Assembly: GCF_003018255.1 (NCBI RefSeq)
Contig: NZ_CP027440.1
Strand: one strand, 5' to 3'
Length of the DNA: 64,000 bases
Source: Escherichia coli
GTDB taxonomy: Bacteria > Pseudomonadota > Gammaproteobacteria > Enterobacterales > Enterobacteriaceae
The position numbers were made by a program, and so were the translations under genes. This document shows positions 35,523 through 59,665 of the stretch, piece by piece. The notes beneath the pieces are model-generated. The model saw only the letters and a list, made by a program, of their open reading frames with translations. It did no database searches and was not told the DNA's origin. Numbering within the stretch: the first letter of the stretch is position 1; each line of letters opens with the position of its first letter.

Positions 35523-36167
35523 CCATTTAGCAGGGAATAATAAGAGAGGGAACTCATTTTGAAATCATTATTCAATCGGTTAACGGGAAAAGCGGTTAGC
35601 CGGACAGCTTTCGTCGAACATCTTGGTCATGAAGTTGTACAACATCATCCAAACTGGAAAGTCATGATTTCGACTGACCATAAATTGATGCGCATTGATG
35701 CTCCACCAAACAGCCATTATTGATACGCCTCCGTCGCCTGTTAGGTTTATGGTGTTTTGCCTTGGCGACGCTACGCTTAATCTGTTACTGATTTCTGGTA
35801 CCATGGGGGGAATAATCTGATTTTATTTGATTGCAAATTAACCACTTAAACCTATTGAATGCGGAACATTGTCAGTCGGTTAATTTTGCGTGCTTTAGCA
35901 TTCACATCTTTCCGGACGATGCAGTGAAAATTGCGTAATCCTCAGCAACCGCTGCGTAATGTCGTCTATCTTGTCGCGATCCTGGCATCCCTACATTATT
36001 TGTGGTCTGTGAAGATTATCTCATTGCAGCCCCTCATCTTCGCAGGGCTGGCTTTACAGCTTTTCACCCTACGTTATAAGAAGTTCCGTCGATGATGGCG
36101 CTAATTTCGTGAATTGTGCGGCTTGTTGCAAATTACACGGTGTTGAAGGTTATTTACATGTTAGCTG

Positions 36168-40133: not shown

Positions 40134-41015
40134 ATGCCTTGGATCCAACTGAAACTGAACACCACCGGCGCGAACGCGGAAGATCTTAGCGATGCGCTGA
40201 TGGAAGCGGGTGCCGTTTCTATCACTTTTCAGGATACCCACGATACGCCTGTGTTTGAGCCGCTGCCGGGCGAAACGCGCCTGTGGGGCGACACCGATGT
40301 GATTGGTCTGTTCGACGCTGAAACCGATATGAACGACGTGGTGGCGATTCTGGAAAACCATCCGCTGCTCGGCGCGGGCTTCGCGCATAAAATCGAACAA
40401 CTGGAAGATAAAGACTGGGAGCGCGAATGGATGGATAATTTCCACCCGATGCGCTTTGGTGAACGGCTGTGGATCTGCCCAAGCTGGCGTGATGTGCCGG
40501 ACGAAAACGCCGTCAACGTGATGTTAGATCCAGGGCTGGCGTTTGGTACGGGTACCCATCCAACTACCTCTCTGTGCCTGCAGTGGCTCGACAGCCTCGA
40601 TTTAACCGGTAAAACAGTCATCGACTTTGGCTGCGGTTCCGGCATTCTGGCTATCGCGGCGCTGAAACTGGGTGCAGCAAAAGCCATTGGTATTGATATT
40701 GATCCGCAGGCGATTCAGGCCAGCCGCGACAACGCGGAACGTAATGGCGTCTCTGACCGTCTGGAACTCTACTTACCGAAAGATCAGCCAGAAGAAATGA
40801 AAGCCGACGTGGTGGTCGCTAACATCCTTGCAGGCCCATTACGTGAACTGGCACCGTTAATCAGCGTCCTGCCAGTTTCAGGCGGTTTGCTGGGCCTTTC
40901 CGGTATTCTGGCAAGCCAGGCAGAGAGCGTTTGCGAAGCTTATGCCGACAGCTTCGCTCTGGACCCGGTCGTGGAAAAAGAAGAGTGGTGCCGCATTACC
41001 GGTCGTAAGAATTAA
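40134..41015 (+). CDS. prmA: Ribosomal protein L11 methyltransferase
   Basis: 293-aa ORF matches E. coli PrmA. Confidence 0.9.
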
Positions 41016-41276
41016 CCTTCGCATCGCCGTAGGGTGACGCAGAGCGAAGTGCGAGCGATGTCACAAAAGGCACGTTAATTTGCCGATTATTTACGCAAAT
41101 TTGCGTGCCAAAATTTTCATTCATAAAGAAAAATTGAGAACTTACTCAAATTTCTTGGAGTGTAAATTTTAGTCACTATTTTCTAATATGATGATTTTTA
41201 TGAGTAATTATCGCGCCACGCTCATTTTAAATGCAATTCTTTGATCCATCTCAGAGGATTGGTCAAAGTTTGGCCT

Positions 41277-41304
41277 TTCATCTCGTGCAAAAAATGCGTA
41301 ATAT
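41277..41304 (+). promoter_or_regulatory. dusB-fis promoter (-35 TTCATC, -10 TAATAT, GC-rich discriminator)
   Basis: Hexamers and discriminator ACGCCGCC read in sequence; A/T-rich Fis/IHF-binding region lies upstream (41100..41270). Confidence 0.55.
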
Positions 41305-41343
41305 ACGCCGCCTTGCAGTCACAGTATGGTCATTTCTTAACTC

Positions 41344-42309
41344 ATGCGCATCGGACAATATCAGCTCAGAAATCGCCTGATCGCAGCGCCCATGGCTGGC
41401 ATTACAGACAGACCTTTTCGGACGTTGTGCTACGAGATGGGAGCCGGATTGACAGTATCCGAGATGATGTCTTCTAACCCTCAGGTTTGGGAAAGCGACA
41501 AATCTCGTTTACGGATGGTGCACATTGATGAACCCGGTATTCGCACCGTGCAAATTGCTGGTAGCGATCCGAAAGAAATGGCAGATGCAGCACGTATTAA
41601 CGTGGAAAGCGGTGCCCAGATTATTGATATCAATATGGGTTGCCCGGCTAAAAAAGTGAATCGCAAGCTCGCAGGTTCAGCCCTCTTGCAGTACCCGGAT
41701 GTCGTTAAATCGATCCTTACCGAGGTCGTCAATGCAGTGGACGTTCCTGTTACCCTGAAAATTCGCACTGGCTGGGCACCGGAACACCGTAACTGCGAAG
41801 AGATTGCCCAACTGGCTGAAGACTGTGGCATTCAGGCTCTGACCATTCATGGCCGTACACGCGCCTGTTTGTTCAATGGAGAAGCTGAGTACGACAGTAT
41901 TCGGGCAGTTAAGCAGAAAGTTTCCATTCCGGTTATCGCGAATGGCGACATTACTGACCCGCTTAAAGCCAGAGCTGTGCTCGACTATACAGGGGCGGAT
42001 GCCCTGATGATAGGCCGCGCAGCTCAGGGAAGACCCTGGATCTTTCGGGAAATCCAGCATTATCTGGACACTGGGGAGTTGCTGCCCCCGCTGCCTTTGG
42101 CAGAGGTTAAGCGCTTGCTTTGCGCGCACGTTCGGGAACTGCATGACTTTTATGGTCCGGCAAAAGGGTACCGAATTGCACGTAAACACGTTTCCTGGTA
42201 TCTCCAGGAACACGCTCCAAATGACCAGTTTCGGCGCACATTCAACGCTATTGAGGATGCCAGCGAACAGCTGGAGGCGTTGGAGGCATACTTCGAAAAT
42301 TTTGCGTAA
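41344..42309 (+). CDS. dusB: tRNA-dihydrouridine synthase B
   Basis: 321-aa ORF matches E. coli DusB. Confidence 0.9.
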
Positions 42310-42334
42310 ACAGAAATAAAGAGCTGACAGAACT

Positions 42335-42631
42335 ATGTTCGAACAACGCGTAAATTCTGACGTACTGACCGTTTCTACCGTTAACTCTCAGGATCAGGTA
42401 ACCCAAAAACCCCTGCGTGACTCGGTTAAACAGGCACTGAAGAACTATTTTGCTCAACTGAATGGTCAGGATGTGAATGACCTCTATGAGCTGGTACTGG
42501 CTGAAGTAGAACAGCCCCTGTTGGACATGGTGATGCAATACACCCGTGGTAACCAGACCCGTGCTGCGCTGATGATGGGCATCAACCGTGGTACGCTGCG
42601 TAAAAAATTGAAAAAATACGGCATGAACTAA
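42335..42631 (+). CDS. fis: Nucleoid-associated protein Fis
   Basis: 98-aa ORF identical in form to E. coli Fis. Confidence 0.97.
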
Positions 42632-42655
42632 TTCAGGTTAGCTAAATGCTTGATT

Positions 42656-42692
42656 AAAAAGGCGCTACTCGGCATGGGGAAGCGCCTTTTTT
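42656..42692 (+). terminator. Intrinsic terminator after fis
   Basis: GGCGCT...AGCGCC hairpin followed by TTTTTT. Confidence 0.7.
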
Positions 42693-42716
42693 ATAGGTGT
42701 CACAAAGGGAGTGACC

Positions 42717-43601
42717 ATGAGAACAGGATGTGAACCGACCCGATTTGGTAATGAAGCAAAGACCATCATCCAGGGTGATGCATTAACCGAACTTAAAAAG
42801 ATCCCCGCCGAAAGTGTAGATCTGATCTTTGCCGACCCACCGTATAACATCGGTAAAAATTTTGATGGTCTGATCGAAGCCTGGAAAGAAGATCTGTTTA
42901 TCGACTGGCTGTTTGAAGTGATTGCAGAGTGCCACCGCGTTCTGAAAAAGCAGGGCAGCATGTACATCATGAACAGCACGGAAAACATGCCCTTTATCGA
43001 TCTCCAGTGCCGCAAGCTTTTTACCATCAAAAGTCGCATCGTCTGGTCATATGACAGTTCTGGAGTGCAGGCGAAAAAACACTACGGCTCCATGTACGAA
43101 CCCATCCTGATGATGGTGAAAGACGCAAAGAACTACACGTTCAACGGTGATGCTATTCTGGTAGAAGCCAAAACCGGATCGCAGCGCGCGTTGATCGATT
43201 ATCGCAAAAATCCTCCACAGCCTTACAATCATCAAAAAGTACCGGGTAACGTCTGGGATTTTCCGCGCGTGCGTTATTTGATGGATGAATATGAGAATCA
43301 CCCGACGCAAAAACCGGAAGCCTTACTGAAACACATTATTCTCGCCTCTTCCAACCCAGGCGATATCGTTCTCGACCCGTTTGCCGGTAGCTTTACTACC
43401 GGTGCCGTAGCCGTCGCCAGTGGGCGAAAATTCATTGGTATTGAGATCAACAGCGAGTACATCAAAATGGGGCTTCGACGGCTGGATGTCGCGTCGCATT
43501 ACTCTGCGGAAGAACTGGCGAAAGTGAAAAAAAGAAAGACCGGCAACCTGTCAAAACGAAGCAGGTTAAGCGAAGTTGACCCCGATCTCATTGCAAAGTA
43601 A
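42717..43601 (+). CDS. yhdJ: Orphan DNA adenine (N6) methyltransferase YhdJ
   Basis: Trimmed to ATG at 42717 giving MRTGCEPTRFG...; DPPY motif (FADPPYNIG). Confidence 0.9.
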   Translation: MRTGCEPTRFGNEAKTIIQGDALTELKKIPAESVDLIFADPPYNIGKNFDGLIEAWKEDLFIDWLFEVIAECHRVLKKQGSMYIMNSTENMPFIDLQCRKLFTIKSRIVWSYDSSGVQAKKHYGSMYEPILMMVKDAKNYTFNGDAILVEAKTGSQRALIDYRKNPPQPYNHQKVPGNVWDFPRVRYLMDEYENHPTQKPEALLKHIILASSNPGDIVLDPFAGSFTTGAVAVASGRKFIGIEINSEYIKMGLRRLDVASHYSAEELAKVKKRKTGNLSKRSRLSEVDPDLIAK

Positions 43602-43684
43602 AGGAAGTGTAAGCCTGGTTTTCAGATTATTCATTTCGTGTATATTTCCTGCCAGACTTGGTTAAACATGCACAGGCTCAGGTA

Positions 43685-43864
43685 ATGATTCGCAAGTATT
43701 GGTGGCTCGTCGTTTTCGCTGTCTTCGTTTTTCTGTTTGATACTTTACTGATGCAGTGGATTGAACTGCTGGCAACAGAAACAGACAAATGCCGCAATAT
43801 GAACTCAGTTAATCCACTAAAACTGGTTAACTGTGACGAACTGAATTTTCACGACAGAATGTGA
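43685..43864 (+). CDS. yhdU: Small membrane protein YhdU
   Basis: Trimmed to MIRKYWWLVVFAVFVF... (59 aa). Confidence 0.65.
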   Translation: MIRKYWWLVVFAVFVFLFDTLLMQWIELLATETDKCRNMNSVNPLKLVNCDELNFHDRM

Positions 43865-43866
43865 AT

Positions 43867-44529
43867 TTATATGACACTTAATTCATTCGTTTGATGAATT
43901 AATTTCGTTATGTTTTCATCTGGCATGAACATTCTTAATACGTTATCGACCAGAGCGGGGGCTTGTTTATAAAGATCATAACCCGCCATATTCATTAACC
44001 AGTTTTGAACAATTCCGCTGAAGGCACCATCAATAATAATCATCACAACATCTAAATCGAGATTATTTGCTATACAACCTTGTTGCTGACACGCCTGCAA
44101 TACTTCGCGGAGAGTCTGCGGATTAAAGCCCATCTTTTCGCGTATCACTCCCTCGGCCAGCATCTCATCATTAAATTCACATTTGTGATATAAGATTTTC
44201 AGCAACGCCTGCTGGCGGGGAATTTTGGCAATATATTGCAAACCGACAATCAATTTTTCACGCAATTGCTGAAACGGGTCATGCTCTAACCCAGCGGTCA
44301 AGTGATCCTGGATTAACTCCCGCAATGAAGGCTGTTGCAACCACATCTCATTAAACAGTTGAGTCTTGTTCTCGAAGTGCCAGTAGATAGCGCCACGCGT
44401 AACGTTAGCAGCGTCGGCAATGTCGTTGAGCGTCGTCTTGCTTACGCCATGCTGCGCAAACTGGGCGATGGCAGTTTCAATCAGTTCTTGCCGGGTCTTC
44501 AGGGCTTCAGCTTTGGTTCTTTTTGCCAT
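43867..44529 (-). CDS. acrS: TetR-family repressor AcrS (EnvR)
   Basis: 220-aa ORF, divergent from acrEF. Confidence 0.9.
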   Translation of the reverse strand: MAKRTKAEALKTRQELIETAIAQFAQHGVSKTTLNDIADAANVTRGAIYWHFENKTQLFNEMWLQQPSLRELIQDHLTAGLEHDPFQQLREKLIVGLQYIAKIPRQQALLKILYHKCEFNDEMLAEGVIREKMGFNPQTLREVLQACQQQGCIANNLDLDVVMIIIDGAFSGIVQNWLMNMAGYDLYKQAPALVDNVLRMFMPDENITKLIHQTNELSVI

Positions 44530-44927
44530 GATTAATTATTCAGGAAATAAATATATTCGACACAGGATGAGAAAATAGAGAAGGTTAATCTATCACCTAA
44601 TGTGTATTTATACGAGAGGCTAATATTGCGTTGCTATAAATCGTCAAATAAATGATATGTATTATTTACATAAAATACATTCACTTGGCCTATACATATT
44701 TCAATTTACGAGATTTTAATTCTACCTCTTTCATTCCGCGTCAAAACAAAACAGTAGAATATTAATCTTTTTTTGTGTTTATGTGCCTTGAGTTGCCAGT
44801 ATTCATAACTATTCCTTACATCGACGAATGATAATTTGTAGGATAGCGAACTGTATTTTTCTTTCTGCGAGTTAACGCATTGCCTTTTTGGGCAAATAAC
44901 GCGCTTTTGGTTTTTTGAGGAATAGTA

Positions 44928-46085
44928 ATGACGAAACATGCCAGGTTTTTCCTCCTGCCCTCCTTTATTCTGATCTCCGCGGCTTTAATCGCCGGTTGTA
45001 ACGATAAGGGAGAAGAGAAAGCTCACGTCGGTGAACCGCAGGTTACCGTTCATATTGTGAAAACGGCCCCGTTAGAAGTTAAGACTGAATTACCAGGCCG
45101 CACCAATGCTTACCGTATAGCCGAAGTTCGCCCACAGGTTAGCGGGATCGTACTGAATCGCAATTTCACTGAAGGCAGCGATGTGCAAGCAGGCCAGTCC
45201 CTGTACCAGATCGATCCCGCGACCTATCAGGCAAGTTATGACAGCGCGAAAGGCGAACTGGCGAAAAGTGAAGCCGCCGCCGCCATCGCGCATTTGACGG
45301 TAAAACGTTACGTTCCGCTCGTGGGTACGAAATACATCAGTCAGCAGGAGTACGACCAGGCCATTGCTGATGCTCGCCAGGCCGATGCCGCCGTGATTGC
45401 CGCAAAAGCCACAGTCGAAAGCGCTCGCATCAATCTCGCTTATACCAAAGTGACTGCGCCAATTAGCGGACGTATCGGCAAATCGACTGTGACCGAAGGC
45501 GCTCTTGTCACTAATGGGCAAACGACCGAACTGGCGACTGTCCAGCAGCTCGATCCTATCTACGTTGATGTGACCCAATCCAGCAACGATTTTATGAGGC
45601 TGAAGCAATCCGTAGAGCAAGGAAATCTGCATAAGGAAAACGCCGCCAGCAACGTAGAGTTGGTCATGGAGAACGGTCAAACCTATCCCCTGAAAGGTAC
45701 GCTGCAATTCTCCGATGTTACCGTTGATGAAAGCACCGGCTCCATAACCCTACGTGCCGTCATCCCTAACCCGCAACATACGCTTTTGCCGGGTATGTTT
45801 GTGCGCGCACGGATTGATGAAGGCGTCCAACCTGACGCCATTCTTATCCCGCAACAAGGCGTTAGCCGCACACCACGTGGTGATGCAACCGTGCTGATTG
45901 TTAACAATAAAAGCCAGGTTGAAGCGCGCCCTGTCGTTGCCAGTCAGGCGATTGGCGATAAATGGTTGATTAGCGAAGGTCTGAAATCTGGCGATCAAGT
46001 CATTGTCAGCGGCCTGCAAAAAGCGCGTCCGGGAGAGCAGGTTAAAGCCACTACCGATACCCCCGCAGATACTGCATCGAAGTAA
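44928..46085 (+). CDS. acrE: RND efflux membrane-fusion lipoprotein AcrE
   Basis: 385-aa ORF with lipobox LIAGC. Confidence 0.9.
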
Positions 46086-54319: not shown

Positions 54320-54439
54320 ATGTCTGGCAGTTCCCTACTCTCGCATGGGGAGACCCCACACTACCATCGGCGCTACGGCGTTTCACTTCTGAGTTCGGCA
54401 TGGGGTCAGGTGGGACCACCGCGCTACTGCCGCCAGACA
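54320..54439 (-). rRNA. rrfF: 5S rRNA, distal copy of rrnD
   Basis: 120-nt reverse-complement match to E. coli 5S rRNA. Confidence 0.9.
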
Positions 54440-54476
54440 AATTCTTTTCTAATCTGCCGAACTTTAACCTAAAAAG

Positions 54477-54552
54477 TGGTGCTGATACCCAGAGTCGAAC
54501 TGGGGACCTCACCCTTACCAAGGGTGCGCTCTACCAACTGAGCCATATCAGC
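54477..54552 (-). tRNA. thrV: tRNA-Thr (anticodon GGU)
   Basis: 76-nt reverse-complement match to E. coli tRNA-Thr; CCA end present. Confidence 0.9.
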
Positions 54553-54564
54553 ACGCTAAATTTG

Positions 54565-54684
54565 ATGCCTGGCAGTTCCCTACTCTCGCATGGGGAGACC
54601 CCACACTACCATCGGCGCTACGGCGTTTCACTTCTGAGTTCGGCATGGGGTCAGGTGGGACCACCGCGCTAAGGCCGCCAGGCA
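54565..54684 (-). rRNA. rrfD: 5S rRNA, proximal copy of rrnD
   Basis: 120-nt reverse-complement match to E. coli 5S rRNA. Confidence 0.9.
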
Positions 54685-54781
54685 AATTCTGTTTTATCAA
54701 CACGTCTCGTTATGACATGTCGATTTAATCTGTATCAGGCTGAAAATCTTCTCTCATCCGCCAAAACATCTTCGGCGTTGT

Positions 54782-57686
<2,905 letters not shown>

Positions 57687-57860
57687 TCACAACCCGAAGA
57701 TGTTTCACTTCAGAGTTGCGAAAATTTGAGAGACTCACGAACAACTTTCGTTGTTCAGTGTTTCAATTTTCAGCTTGATCCAGATTTTTAAAGAGCAAAA
57801 CTTCGCAGTGAACCTTTGCAGGTACACTCTGAAGTATTTTTTATTTAATCACTACAGAGA

Positions 57861-57936
57861 TGGTGGAGCTATGCGGGATCGAACCGCAGACCTCCTGCGT
57901 GCAAAGCAGGCGCTCTCCCAGCTGAGCTATAGCCCC
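57861..57936 (-). tRNA. alaU: tRNA-Ala (anticodon UGC), spacer tRNA
   Basis: 76-nt reverse-complement match to E. coli tRNA-Ala. Confidence 0.9.
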
Positions 57937-57978
57937 ATAACATGTAGTTAAAACCTCTTCAAATTTGCCGTGCAAATT

Positions 57979-58055
<77 letters not shown>

Positions 58056-58123
58056 GTAGAGGTTTTACTGCTCATTTTCATCAGACAATCTGTGTGAGCA
58101 CTGCAAAGTACGCTTCTTTAAGG

Positions 58124-59665
<1,542 letters not shown>

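What the first reader, a model, noticed from the sequence alone, without database searches (positions are those of the whole stretch)
42717..43601. Orphan adenine methyltransferase yhdJ directly downstream of fis
A solitary N6-adenine methyltransferase with no adjacent restriction endonuclease, separated from fis only by the fis terminator (85 bp gap). Read-through from the very strong, growth-phase-regulated fis promoter could couple its expression to growth phase. From memory it methylates ATGCAT sites and is poorly expressed under laboratory conditions.
Basis: partly seen in the sequence, partly recalled or inferred. Interest (0 to 1): 0.3.

Follow-up and report, generated by a model that had tools for sequence, protein, structure and literature searches.

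The report
Known orphan DNA methylase gene yhdJ
This is the well-known E. coli gene yhdJ, a stand-alone DNA adenine methylase next to fis; it is ordinary and already described, although it seems to be a promoterless leftover of a plasmid restriction-modification system and this strain's copy has a rare change at an invariant residue.

Summary
Window 42717-43601 (+) is yhdJ (M.EcoKII), a 294-aa beta-class N6-adenine DNA methyltransferase. It lies 85 bp after fis, and the gap holds the fis terminator hairpin. The locus is E. coli core genome, present in 5425 of 5426 complete genomes.

Published work already shows three things:
- It has ATGCA*T specificity.
- It is silent in E. coli K-12, E2348/69 and natural isolates.
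- In Salmonella it is active but has no phenotype.

New here:
- **Origin.** YhdJ's closest relatives are M.EcoT22I of plasmid pEC22 (75% identity) and a cross-phylum family. In 49 of 58 of those loci the methylase sits beside a Type II endonuclease. No trace of that endonuclease is in the window.
- **Insertion.** Klebsiella has fis, the same hairpin, then convergent envR. So yhdJ-yhdU is an insertion behind an ancestral, probably bidirectional, terminator.
- **No promoter.** Homology to the plasmid gene starts about 17 nt before the ATG. The plasmid promoter is replaced by the terminator.
- **Selection.** yhdJ is under purifying selection (dN/dS 0.04-0.12).
- **Rare variant.** This allele carries R206H at an invariant arginine.

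Read-through coupling to fis fits the anatomy and two Salmonella data sets, but it is unproven and yields no detectable methylation in E. coli. Already known; low interest.

The parts
41276..41312 (+). Presumed fis-operon promoter: TTTCAT, 17 nt, TAATAT, then a GC-rich discriminator ACGCCGCC
   Evidence: Sequence read. The assignment rests on my recollection of the published fis promoter and was not tested here. The consensus scan does not detect it.
41344..42309 (+). dusB, first gene of the dusB-fis operon
   Evidence: PF01207 Dus at E=4.4e-120; annotated as dusB in relatives.
42335..42631 (+). fis
   Evidence: NF001659 equivalog at 181 bits; 100% amino-acid identity in 23 of the 24 enteric species loci (97.9% over a partial match in the other).
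42656..42694 (.). fis intrinsic terminator. A5, stem GGCGCU (42661-42666) pairing with AGCGCC (42681-42686), inner CUC/GGG pairs, then T6 plus AT. Ancestral and probably bidirectional.
   Evidence: Fold. The hairpin alone is -14.0 kcal/mol. The core is essentially invariant (two single-base variants) in 25 Escherichia, Citrobacter and Salmonella sequences while the flanks diverge. In Klebsiella it lies between convergent fis and envR.
42695..42716 (+). yhdJ leader, with the conserved TCACA (42700-42704) and the Shine-Dalgarno AAGGGAG (42705-42711). It marks the left edge of the yhdJ-yhdU insertion.
   Evidence: Homology with Klebsiella ends at 42694. TCACA and its spacing to the ATG are shared with the plasmid M.EcoT22I genes. 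Upstream of TCACA the plasmids carry promoter-like TTGCAC-17-TAACAT instead.
42717..43601 (+). yhdJ coding sequence (M.EcoKII orthologue), an orphan beta-class N6-adenine DNA methyltransferase
   Evidence: Five amino-acid differences from K-12. Closest solved structure is CcrM 6PBD at E=1.8e-31.
42778..42783 (.). ATGCAT, the enzyme's own target site, inside yhdJ (codons 21-23)
42834..42845 (+). Catalytic motif IV, D40-P-P-Y43
   Evidence: Read from the translation; aligned to the CcrM DPPY motif.
43332..43334 (+). Codon 206 is CAC (His) within HPTQKPEALLKHII. It replaces an Arg that is invariant in the family.
   Evidence: Arg in 37 of 37 other family members and in CcrM. G43333A is the only difference from strain E04 over 4001 nt. 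The allele occurs in 1 other strain of 5426 genomes.
43368..43403 (+). AdoMet-binding motif I, V218-LDPFAGSFTTG-229. It lies C-terminal to motif IV, which is the beta-class order.
   Evidence: Translation; alignments.
43685..43864 (+). yhdU (DUF2556, 59 aa). It co-occurs with yhdJ and is absent together with it in Klebsiella.
   Evidence: PF10831 at E=4.3e-36; synteny; Klebsiella loci.
43867..44529 (-). acrS (envR), convergent with yhdJ-yhdU. No intrinsic terminator follows its stop codon.
   Evidence: No terminator-like site. The downstream minus-strand RNA does not fold better than shuffles (z=0.38).

Best explanation
The feature is yhdJ (M.EcoKII). It is a beta-class, AdoMet-dependent N6-adenine DNA methyltransferase that methylates the second adenine of ATGCAT and has no partner endonuclease.

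It is most likely a domesticated remnant of an EcoT22I/AvaIII-type Type II restriction-modification system. The methylase gene arrived with about 17-20 nt of leader and its ribosome-binding site, and together with yhdU. It arrived without its own promoter, its controller (C) protein or its endonuclease. It was inserted between the ancestral fis/envR terminator and the envR (acrS) stop codon, in the common ancestor of Escherichia, Salmonella and Citrobacter.

Only 22 nt separate the end of the terminator (42694) from the start codon. Transcription of yhdJ must therefore come from polymerases that leak through the fis terminator, or from a weak start inside it. That keeps expression very low. 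In E. coli the result is no detectable ATGCAT methylation. In Salmonella it is partial, condition-dependent methylation.

Shown here: identity, orphan status, the relationship to M.EcoT22I, the insertion boundaries, absence of the plasmid promoter, and purifying selection. Inferred: that terminator read-through is the source of transcripts, and the direction of the evolutionary event. Taken from the literature: ATGCAT specificity and silence in E. coli.
For: **Identity**
- PF01555 at E=2.7e-63.
- NF008572 equivalog at 585 bits against a cut-off of 292.
- 289 of 294 residues identical to K-12 YhdJ, with an identical intergenic region.
- Present in 5425 of 5426 E. coli genomes.

**Specificity and silence (literature)**
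- PMC4444293, PMC9150344, PMC8495745, PMC9911048.
- Salmonella activity: PMC9239280 and bioRxiv 10.64898/2026.01.27.702048.

**Origin from a restriction-modification system**
- 49 of 58 non-enteric homologue loci (58-71% identity) carry one conserved 345-395 aa gene immediately downstream. All other neighbours differ.
- That gene matches PADLOC PDLC03455, a Type II restriction enzyme, at E=1e-124 and 6.5e-70.
- The closest relative is the pEC22 methylase, 75% identical over 267 aa. pEC22 encodes MR.EcoT22I, an AvaIII isoschizomer.
- On the plasmids the endonuclease is convergent and an HTH_3 C protein is present.
- In a neighbour-joining tree the chromosomal clade is sister to the plasmid clade.

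**Orphan status**
- hmmsearch --max with the endonuclease profile finds nothing better than E=3 in the window or in the 24 enteric loci.

**Insertion**
- Klebsiella pneumoniae and K. aerogenes have fis, the same hairpin, then the envR stop about 25 nt later, with no yhdJ or yhdU.

**No promoter**
- Homology to the plasmid genes begins at TCACA. The plasmid TTGCAC-17-TAACAT is replaced by the terminator.
- No sigma-70-like match lies in 42300-42716.

**Maintained by selection**
- dN/dS is 0.04-0.12 in every comparison where dS was not saturated.

**Low expression**
- Salmonella RNA-seq gives yhdJ at about 10% of fis per kb.
Against: - No transcript end or start was measured, so read-through is an inference from spacing.
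- The promoter scan is insensitive. It does not detect the fis promoter either, so a non-consensus promoter overlapping the terminator (for example TCGGCA-17-TATAGG, 8 of 12) is not excluded.
- Deleting dusB-fis did not change yhdJ mRNA in K-12 CSH50. Both strains compared had a resistance cassette between fis and yhdJ.
- Salmonella methylation rises in SPI-2 medium and in a metJ mutant without a significant change in yhdJ mRNA. Enzyme or AdoMet supply and site accessibility therefore matter, not transcription alone.
- The terminator and the spacing are the same in E. coli and Salmonella. Read-through alone does not explain why one is silent and the other active.
- Loss of yhdJ-yhdU in Klebsiella, rather than gain in the other clade, is not formally excluded with two outgroup genera.
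Confidence: 0.75

Rival explanations
1. yhdJ has its own conditionally active promoter or regulator and is independent of fis. It is switched on only in a natural condition not yet tried. The position next to fis is an accident of where the insertion landed.
For: - Strong purifying selection despite laboratory silence.
- Near-universal retention in E. coli and in Salmonella.
- yhdJ mRNA was unchanged when dusB-fis was deleted.
- Salmonella methylation is higher in SPI-2 minimal medium, where I would expect fis expression to be low from general knowledge.
Against: - Only 22 nt lie between the end of the terminator (42694) and the ATG.
- The best overlapping sigma-70 match is 8 of 12 and lacks the -7 T (sequence; scan).
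- The region homologous to the plasmid gene's promoter is missing.
- No published condition activates the gene in E. coli.
Confidence: 0.2
2. YhdJ is kept as immunity against ATGCAT-specific restriction-modification systems. By pre-methylating ATGCAT it would blunt post-segregational killing or attack by EcoT22I-type plasmids, and would protect DNA exported to hosts that carry such systems. This would be analogous to the protection against EcoRII proposed for Dcm (my recollection of Takahashi et al. 2002, not checked here).
For: - The closest relatives of YhdJ are methylases of complete C-R-M modules on small mobilizable ColE1-type plasmids in E. coli, Klebsiella and Enterobacter.
- The gene is under purifying selection without any known regulatory role.
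- The Salmonella authors also suggest a defence-related role.
Against: - No ATGCAT methylation is detectable in E. coli, so there would be no protection.
- Salmonella methylates only about 61% of sites.
- The endonuclease is rare, found in 3 of 5426 E. coli genomes.
- ATGCAT is not unusually depleted. It ranks 29th of 64 six-base palindromes in the window.
Confidence: 0.2
3. In E. coli the gene is a decaying relic that drifts neutrally towards loss, and its conservation reflects only its recent common ancestry.
For: - No activity in E. coli.
- No phenotype on deletion.
- Synonymous divergence is 5-10 times that of dusB, as expected for a poorly expressed gene.
- R206H at an invariant residue in this strain and independently in strain C21.
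- Occasional deletion, as in strain 58-3.
Against: - dN/dS within Escherichia is 0.05-0.12, far below 1.
- The locus (1.6-kb query spanning fis-yhdJ-yhdU) is covered at 80% or more of its length in 5388 of 5425 genomes.
- The K-12 allele is active when over-expressed.
Confidence: 0.08
4. Silence in E. coli is caused by convergent transcription. acrS lost its terminator when yhdJ-yhdU was inserted, so acrS transcripts run antisense through yhdU and yhdJ up to the bidirectional hairpin and interfere with yhdJ expression. In Salmonella other genes separate yhdU from envR.
For: - No terminator-like site follows the acrS stop on the minus strand.
- In Klebsiella the hairpin lies about 25 nt after envR.
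- In Salmonella loci envR is 0.9-2.2 kb further away, or a co-directional GGDEF/EAL gene follows yhdU.
Against: - This is purely anatomical; no strand-specific RNA data were available.
- I recall that acrS and acrEF are themselves poorly expressed in the laboratory.
- Rho would probably stop an untranslated antisense RNA.
- Citrobacter has the E. coli arrangement, but its methylome was not examined.
Confidence: 0.07

Closest known systems
YhdJ / M.EcoKII of E. coli K-12 (b3262; Broadbent et al. 2007, J Bacteriol 189:4325, cited; the paper itself is not held)
   Same: This is the same gene at the same locus. 289 of 294 residues are identical, the fis-yhdJ intergenic region is identical, and the neighbours are the same. 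ATGCA*T specificity and laboratory silence are reported for it.
   Different: There are five substitutions: H19Q, A24T, R206H, I233V and T293A. R206H falls on a family-invariant arginine and is almost private to this strain.
M.EcoT22I of plasmid pEC22 (NC_025058; Elhai, Cai and Wolk 1994, cited) and the related C-R-M modules on small enterobacterial plasmids
   Same: 75% amino-acid identity over 267 residues. Same Pfam domain. The recognition sequence ATGCAT is reported to be the same. The leader element TCACA and its spacing to the ATG are shared.
   Different: The plasmid gene has its own promoter-like sequence, a convergent overlapping endonuclease and an HTH controller protein. yhdJ has none of these. 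The C-terminal tail diverges after about residue 280.
CcrM of Caulobacter (PDB 6PBD)
   Same: It is the best solved-structure match (E=1.8e-31). It shares the beta-class motif order, the DPPY motif and the HPTQKPxxLLxR...DPFxGxGTTG motifs, and it is also an orphan.
   Different: It is not an orthologue: the NCBIfam CcrM equivalog scores 132 bits against a cut-off of 830. From general knowledge, CcrM recognises GANTC, is essential or cell-cycle regulated, and carries an extra C-terminal domain. YhdJ is 294 aa against 366.
Dam and Dcm, the other E. coli orphan methyltransferases
   Same: They are solitary chromosomal methylases conserved across enteric bacteria, with relatives in restriction-modification systems.
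   Different: Dam and Dcm are expressed and methylate nearly all of their sites. YhdJ gives no detectable methylation in E. coli and partial methylation in Salmonella.

Membership tests
Beta-class N6/N4 amino-DNA methyltransferases (Pfam PF01555) | Significant match to the N6_N4_Mtase domain over its full length | tested here: met
   E=2.7e-63, 214 bits against a cut-off of 26.7, profile positions 1-218 of 221.
Beta-class N6/N4 amino-DNA methyltransferases (Pfam PF01555) | Catalytic (D/S)PPY motif IV lies N-terminal to AdoMet motif I (FxGxG-type), which is the circular permutation IV...X-I | tested here: met
   D40PPY43 and 218-VLDPFAGSFTTG-229 in the translation, aligned to the same motifs of CcrM.
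YhdJ / M.EcoKII orthologue group (NCBIfam NF008572) | Score above the curated equivalog cut-off over the whole protein | tested here: met
   585.4 bits against a cut-off of 292, positions 1-294 of 294.
YhdJ / M.EcoKII orthologue group (NCBIfam NF008572) | Conserved chromosomal position dusB-fis-yhdJ-yhdU | tested here: met
   Window genes, K-12, and the dusB-fis-yhdJ order in all 24 Escherichia, Citrobacter and Salmonella species loci where the contig allows (yhdU found in 23).
YhdJ / M.EcoKII orthologue group (NCBIfam NF008572) | Methylation of the second A of ATGCAT (protection from NsiI) | not testable with these tools
   Reported for the K-12 and Salmonella orthologues. This allele has R206H at an invariant residue, so its activity is not assured.
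CcrM (NCBIfam NF050803) | Score above the CcrM equivalog cut-off | tested here: not met
   132.5 bits against a cut-off of 830. The similarity is at the level of fold and motifs only.
Complete Type II restriction-modification system of EcoT22I/AvaIII type | Methylase homologous to M.EcoT22I | tested here: met
   75% identity, E=4e-160; sister clades in the tree.
Complete Type II restriction-modification system of EcoT22I/AvaIII type | Cognate endonuclease (PADLOC PDLC03455 family) adjacent to the methylase | tested here: not met
   The endonuclease profile searched against six-frame translations of the whole window and of 24 enteric loci gives a best E of 3.3. The downstream genes are yhdU and acrS.
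Complete Type II restriction-modification system of EcoT22I/AvaIII type | Controller (C) HTH protein next to the endonuclease | tested here: not met
   The only non-overlapping ORF between 42632 and 43866 is yhdU, a DUF2556 protein and not an HTH protein. I did not run a dedicated search of the window with the plasmid C protein.
Intrinsic (Rho-independent) terminator | GC-rich hairpin followed directly by a U-run | tested here: met
   Stem GGCGCU/AGCGCC plus an inner 3-bp stem, -14.0 kcal/mol, then U6.
Intrinsic (Rho-independent) terminator | Measured transcript 3' ends and termination efficiency at the site | not testable with these tools

The most novel reading that the evidence does not exclude
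yhdJ is a promoterless, domesticated M.EcoT22I-type methylase whose only transcripts are polymerases that escape the fis/envR bidirectional terminator. Genome-wide ATGCAT methylation would then be a passive, heritable read-out of fis-operon transcription, that is, of growth phase and supercoiling. This read-out would be visible in Salmonella and damped below detection in E. coli, possibly by convergent acrS transcription. The gene would be retained because low-level methylation gives partial immunity to EcoT22I-type plasmids.
Probability: 0.2. Interest if true: 0.45.

Novelty: already known. Interest (0 to 1): 0.2.

Why it matters
The gene, its specificity and its silence in E. coli have been known since 2007, so the finding itself adds nothing. 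What stays open is why a methylase with no detectable activity or phenotype is kept under purifying selection in nearly all E. coli, Salmonella and Citrobacter.

The comparative anatomy found here turns that question into simple experiments. The relevant features are capture from an EcoT22I-type system without its promoter, insertion directly behind a terminator that probably once served both fis and envR, and related restriction-modification plasmids still circulating in enteric bacteria. The experiments are terminator insertion, fis-promoter deletion and challenge with the EcoT22I endonuclease.

There is also a practical point. This strain's allele carries R206H at an invariant residue, so a negative methylome result in this strain would not be informative about expression.

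Tried and rejected
- **ATGCAT depletion as a sign of restriction pressure.** There are 9 sites against 26 expected from dinucleotide shuffles. With tri- and penta-nucleotide Markov expectations the ratio is 0.56-0.71, and ATGCAT ranks only 29th of 64 six-base palindromes. This is general palindrome avoidance, so I rejected it.
- **A small RNA at the fis 3' end.** Rfam STnc40 matches 42625-42692 at 25.6 bits, below the gathering score of 45. It gives no match at the same place in two Salmonella and two Citrobacter loci. I treat it as a chance match to a terminator hairpin.
- **A relic of the endonuclease in or antisense to yhdU.** The profile search was negative. The one weak hit (E=3.3, in Citrobacter gillenii) aligns the wrong end of the protein for a convergent gene.
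- **Covariation support for the terminator.** This was impossible because the hairpin does not vary within the clade.
- **Published operon and Term-seq tables.** No supplement is held for PMC4161252. Broadbent 2007 (PMC1913422) is not held.
- **d'Aubenton-Carafa-type terminator score.** I computed it from a formula recalled from memory. My reference terminators did not calibrate sensibly, so I use only the hairpin energy and the U-run.
- **Faster protein evolution on the Escherichia branch.** With M.EcoT22I as outgroup the excess is only about 3%, so I make no claim.
Full report
**1. What is there**

The ORF from ATG 42717 to stop 43601 (+ strand) encodes 294 aa.
- It matches Pfam PF01555 (N6_N4_Mtase) at E=2.7e-63.
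- It matches the NCBIfam equivalog NF008572 at 585 bits against a cut-off of 292, end to end.
- The surrounding order is prmA-dusB-fis-yhdJ-yhdU-acrS(-)-acrEF, as in E. coli K-12.
- A 1.6-kb query across the locus matches 5425 of 5426 complete E. coli genomes, and RefSeq names the gene yhdJ.
- The protein differs from K-12 YhdJ at five residues. The fis-yhdJ intergenic region is identical to K-12.
- The motif order is beta-class: D40PPY43 lies N-terminal to 218-VLDPFAGSFTTG-229.
- The best solved relative is CcrM (6PBD, E=1.8e-31). The CcrM equivalog model is far from met (132 against 830 bits). 'CcrM-like' therefore describes the fold, not orthology.

**2. What is already published**

- yhdJ encodes M.EcoKII. 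When over-expressed it methylates the second A of ATGCAT and protects against NsiI. No activity has been seen from the native gene in K-12. Strain ER2796 shows no m6A signature at its 1644 ATGCAT positions (PMC4444293).
- The motif serves as an unmethylated negative control in MG1655 (PMC9150344).
- It is unmethylated in E2348/69 by both PacBio and nanopore sequencing (PMC8495745). The window is 99.4% identical to an O127:H6 genome over this locus.
- It is not detected as methylated in three natural isolates (PMC9911048).
- In Salmonella Typhimurium 14028s, YhdJ methylates about 513 sites and is the most condition-dependent methylase. Its deletion has almost no transcriptional, growth or virulence effect (PMC9239280).
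- In strain 4/74, 61% of sites are methylated in at least one phase, and more are methylated in mid-exponential than in late stationary phase (bioRxiv 10.64898/2026.01.27.702048).
- Deletions of yhdJ in E. coli have no phenotype in the assays reported.

**3. The junction with fis**

The gap folds into a hairpin at 42656-42691 followed by six T. Its parts are an A-run, the stem GGCGCU/AGCGCC, an inner 3-bp stem and a hexaloop. The hairpin alone is -14.0 kcal/mol. The consensus scan missed it because the loop exceeds 8 nt.

In the 24 species-representative loci of Escherichia, Citrobacter and Salmonella:
- the dusB-fis-yhdJ order is conserved in all 24 where the contig allows, and yhdU follows in 23;
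- the gap is 82-88 nt in 23 of the 24 (99 nt as extracted for the Citrobacter amalonaticus AUH locus, where the Fis match was incomplete);
- the 38-nt core AAAAGGCGCTACTCGGCATGGGGAAGCGCCTTTTTTAT is essentially invariant, loop included, with two single-base variants among the 25 sequences;
- the roughly 25 nt on each side diverge freely.

Because the core never varies, covariation cannot be used as evidence. The Rfam sRNA family STnc40 gives a sub-threshold hit here that is absent from the Salmonella loci. I treat it as chance.

**4. Klebsiella shows what the junction looked like before yhdJ**

Two Klebsiella chromosomes are filed in the plasmid collection. Their homology to the window runs from fis through the T-run and stops at window position 42694.

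In K. pneumoniae and K. aerogenes the next feature is the stop codon of convergent envR (acrS), about 25 nt after the same hairpin. The loop differs at two bases. There is no yhdJ and no yhdU.

So the hairpin, with its symmetric A-run and T-run, is ancestral to fis. It probably served as a bidirectional terminator for fis and envR. The segment at about 42695-43864 (yhdJ plus yhdU) is an insertion between it and envR.

Three observations fit this reading:
- Cedecea also lacks yhdJ after fis, and 57620 of 57705 Salmonella genomes have it (PMC10111431).
- A rare E. coli strain, 58-3, has a different segment (a DUF6602 gene plus IS1) starting at the same point.
- After the insertion, acrS has no recognisable intrinsic terminator. 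Its transcripts may therefore run antisense into yhdU and yhdJ. I did not test this.

Gain in the Escherichia-Salmonella-Citrobacter ancestor is the parsimonious reading. Loss in Klebsiella is not formally excluded.

**5. Where the methylase came from**

A scan of one genome per species found orthologues (77-98% identity) only in Escherichia, Citrobacter and Salmonella. Identity then drops to 58-71% in Pseudoalteromonas, Nostoc, Anabaena, Prochlorococcus, Pseudomonas, many Bacteroidota and some Clostridia.
- In 49 of those 58 loci one conserved 345-395 aa gene lies 0-77 bp downstream, or overlaps by a few bases. It is convergent in proteobacteria and cyanobacteria and co-directional in Bacteroidota. 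Every other neighbour differs, which is the signature of a mobile two-gene module.
- That gene has no Pfam or PDB sequence match. It matches the PADLOC model PDLC03455, 'Type II restriction enzyme', at E=1e-124 and 6.5e-70.

The closest relatives of all are on small mobilizable plasmids of E. coli, Klebsiella and Enterobacter.
- On pEC22 and p2017.15.02CC_2 the methylase is 75% identical to YhdJ over 267 aa.
- It is convergent with, and overlaps by 29 nt, the endonuclease. An HTH_3 controller protein lies beside the endonuclease.
- pEC22 is the plasmid 'coding for MR.EcoT22I' (Elhai et al. 1994, cited). M.EcoT22I is used as the isoschizomer methylase of AvaIII, that is, ATGCAT.
- A neighbour-joining tree puts the chromosomal enteric clade as sister to the plasmid M.EcoT22I clade, inside the endonuclease-linked family.
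- A profile of the endonuclease finds nothing in six-frame translations of the whole window or of the 24 enteric loci (best E=3.3).
- Only 3 of 5426 E. coli genomes carry the endonuclease, always on 4-6 kb plasmids.
- No paper in the held library mentions yhdJ and EcoT22I together. I expect REBASE curators know the relationship.

**6. The captured gene has no promoter of its own**

The five chromosomal leaders aligned (E. coli, Salmonella and three Citrobacter) and both plasmid leaders share TCACA at the same distance from the ATG; C. sedlakii and two C. amalonaticus leaders lack it. Upstream of TCACA the plasmids carry a promoter-like TTGCAC-17-TAACAT or TTGTAC-17-TAGCAT and a short palindrome. 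The chromosomes carry the fis terminator instead. Nucleotide similarity to pEC22 ends near window 43540, and the last 15 or so codons differ.

With 22 nt between the end of the terminator (42694) and the ATG, a sigma-70 promoter cannot fit downstream of the terminator. The best overlapping candidate is TCGGCA-17-TATAGG. It scores 8 of 12 and lacks the -7 T, so it is poor. The scan reports nothing between 42300 and 42716. One caveat applies: the same scan also fails to report the fis promoter, so this negative result is weak.

I infer that yhdJ transcripts arise mostly from polymerases that escape the fis terminator.

**7. Does read-through actually couple yhdJ to growth phase?**

Indirect support:
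- Salmonella has more ATGCAT methylation in mid-exponential than in late stationary phase.
- In 14028s RNA-seq, wild-type LB cultures gave normalised counts of 29, 36 and 22 for yhdJ and 88, 119 and 78 for fis. Per kb, yhdJ is about 10% of fis.
- dusB-fis cassettes moved elsewhere raise transcription of the gene downstream of them, in exponential phase only.

Against:
- E. coli shows no methylation even in growing cultures.
- yhdJ mRNA did not change when dusB-fis was deleted in K-12. Both strains had a cassette at the junction, so the native junction was not tested.
- Salmonella methylation rises in SPI-2 medium. It also rises in a metJ mutant whose yhdJ mRNA is not significantly changed (logFC 0.64, padj 1) while metK is up about 37-fold. 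That points to AdoMet supply rather than transcription.
- The terminator and spacing are the same in the silent and the active species.

So read-through is a reasonable source of a low basal level. It is not shown, and it cannot be the whole story.

**8. Selection**

- dN/dS for yhdJ is 0.04-0.12 in every comparison where dS was not saturated, including within Escherichia. The gene is maintained and is not decaying.
- Its synonymous divergence is 5-10 times that of the adjacent dusB and is saturated between genera. For window against E. whittamii, dS is 0.49 for yhdJ and 0.046 for dusB.
- The sharp change occurs at the terminator. This fits a long history of low expression, or recombination, on the yhdJ side.
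- GC content falls from about 47% in yhdJ to 37-39% over yhdU and acrS, and to 31% in the acrS-acrE spacer.

**9. A feature specific to this window**

- Residue 206 is His (CAC; A at 43333) within HPTQKPEALLKHII.
- All 37 other family members I aligned, from enteric chromosomes to Bacteroidota, have Arg there. So does CcrM.
- The closest genome, strain E04, differs from the window over 41000-45000 at this single base.
- A 41-mer carrying CAC occurs in one other strain of 5426 genomes (C21, two records). The CGC 41-mer occurs in 5388.
- C21 carries the change on a different yhdJ background (18 nt differences), so it arose independently.
- Whether R206H lowers activity is untested. It does mean that a negative methylome result in this strain could not be read as lack of expression.

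**10. Verdict**

The feature is an already known gene. The additions here are its origin from an EcoT22I-type system, the insertion behind a probably bidirectional terminator, the missing promoter, purifying selection, and the R206H allele. They sharpen an old question, namely why this silent methylase is kept, but do not answer it. Interest is low.

Noticed in passing
window 43332-43334 (nt 43333): yhdJ codon 206 is His where 37 of 37 family members and CcrM have Arg. This is the only difference from strain E04 over 4 kb. It recurs independently in one other strain (C21) of 5426 genomes. It may be a hypomorphic allele.
   Followed up: partly
window 42656-42694; L086 4298-4381; L088 3298-3380: The 38-nt fis terminator core, loop included, is essentially invariant (two single-base variants) across Escherichia, Citrobacter and Salmonella while both flanks diverge. 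In Klebsiella the same hairpin sits between convergent fis and envR, which suggests an ancestral bidirectional terminator. I cannot explain why the loop is conserved.
   Followed up: partly
window 43601-43866, minus strand: acrS has no recognisable intrinsic terminator after its stop codon. Its transcripts could run antisense through yhdU and yhdJ to the fis hairpin. In Salmonella other genes separate yhdU from envR.
   Followed up: partly
L084 2074-4209; L085 5483-7618: Complete C-R-M modules of EcoT22I type, with a methylase 74-75% identical to YhdJ, sit on 4-12 kb mobilizable plasmids of E. coli, Klebsiella and Enterobacter. They occur in only 3 of 5426 complete E. coli genomes.
   Followed up: yes
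window 41344-43601 against L004-L025: Synonymous divergence jumps 5-10 fold at the fis terminator. dS for dusB and fis is 0.02-0.32 between genera, while yhdJ is saturated.
   Followed up: partly
L002 6333-9134 (E. coli strain 58-3): In this strain yhdJ, yhdU, acrS and acrEF are replaced by a DUF6602 gene and IS1. The replacement starts right after the fis terminator, at the same breakpoint as the Klebsiella homology boundary.
   Followed up: partly
whole window: GGCGCC occurs 0 times against about 28 expected, and several other six-base palindromes are strongly depleted. ATGCAT (9 observed, 13-16 expected) is unremarkable among them.
   Followed up: yes
window 42625-42692: There is a sub-threshold Rfam match to the Salmonella sRNA family STnc40 (25.6 bits against 45) over the fis 3' end and terminator. 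It is not reproduced in Salmonella or Citrobacter loci, so it is probably chance.
   Followed up: yes
window 54322-59665, minus strand: This is a ribosomal RNA operon with two 5S genes separated by a tRNA (54322-54437, 54480-54552, 54567-54682). A StyR-44 Rfam match lies at 57694-57793, next to the 23S gene.
   Followed up: no
window about 35708-36095 (from L001 13409-13796): The closest annotated relative marks a truncated pseudogene of a YedZ/MsrQ-like heme-binding subunit between yhdH and accB. I did not check it in the window.
   Followed up: no
Salmonella 4/74 coordinates 3578263-3578269 (supplement of bioRxiv 10.64898/2026.01.27.702048): The ATGCAT site inside Salmonella yhdJ itself is classed as unmethylated (0-12% of reads) in both growth phases.
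   Followed up: no
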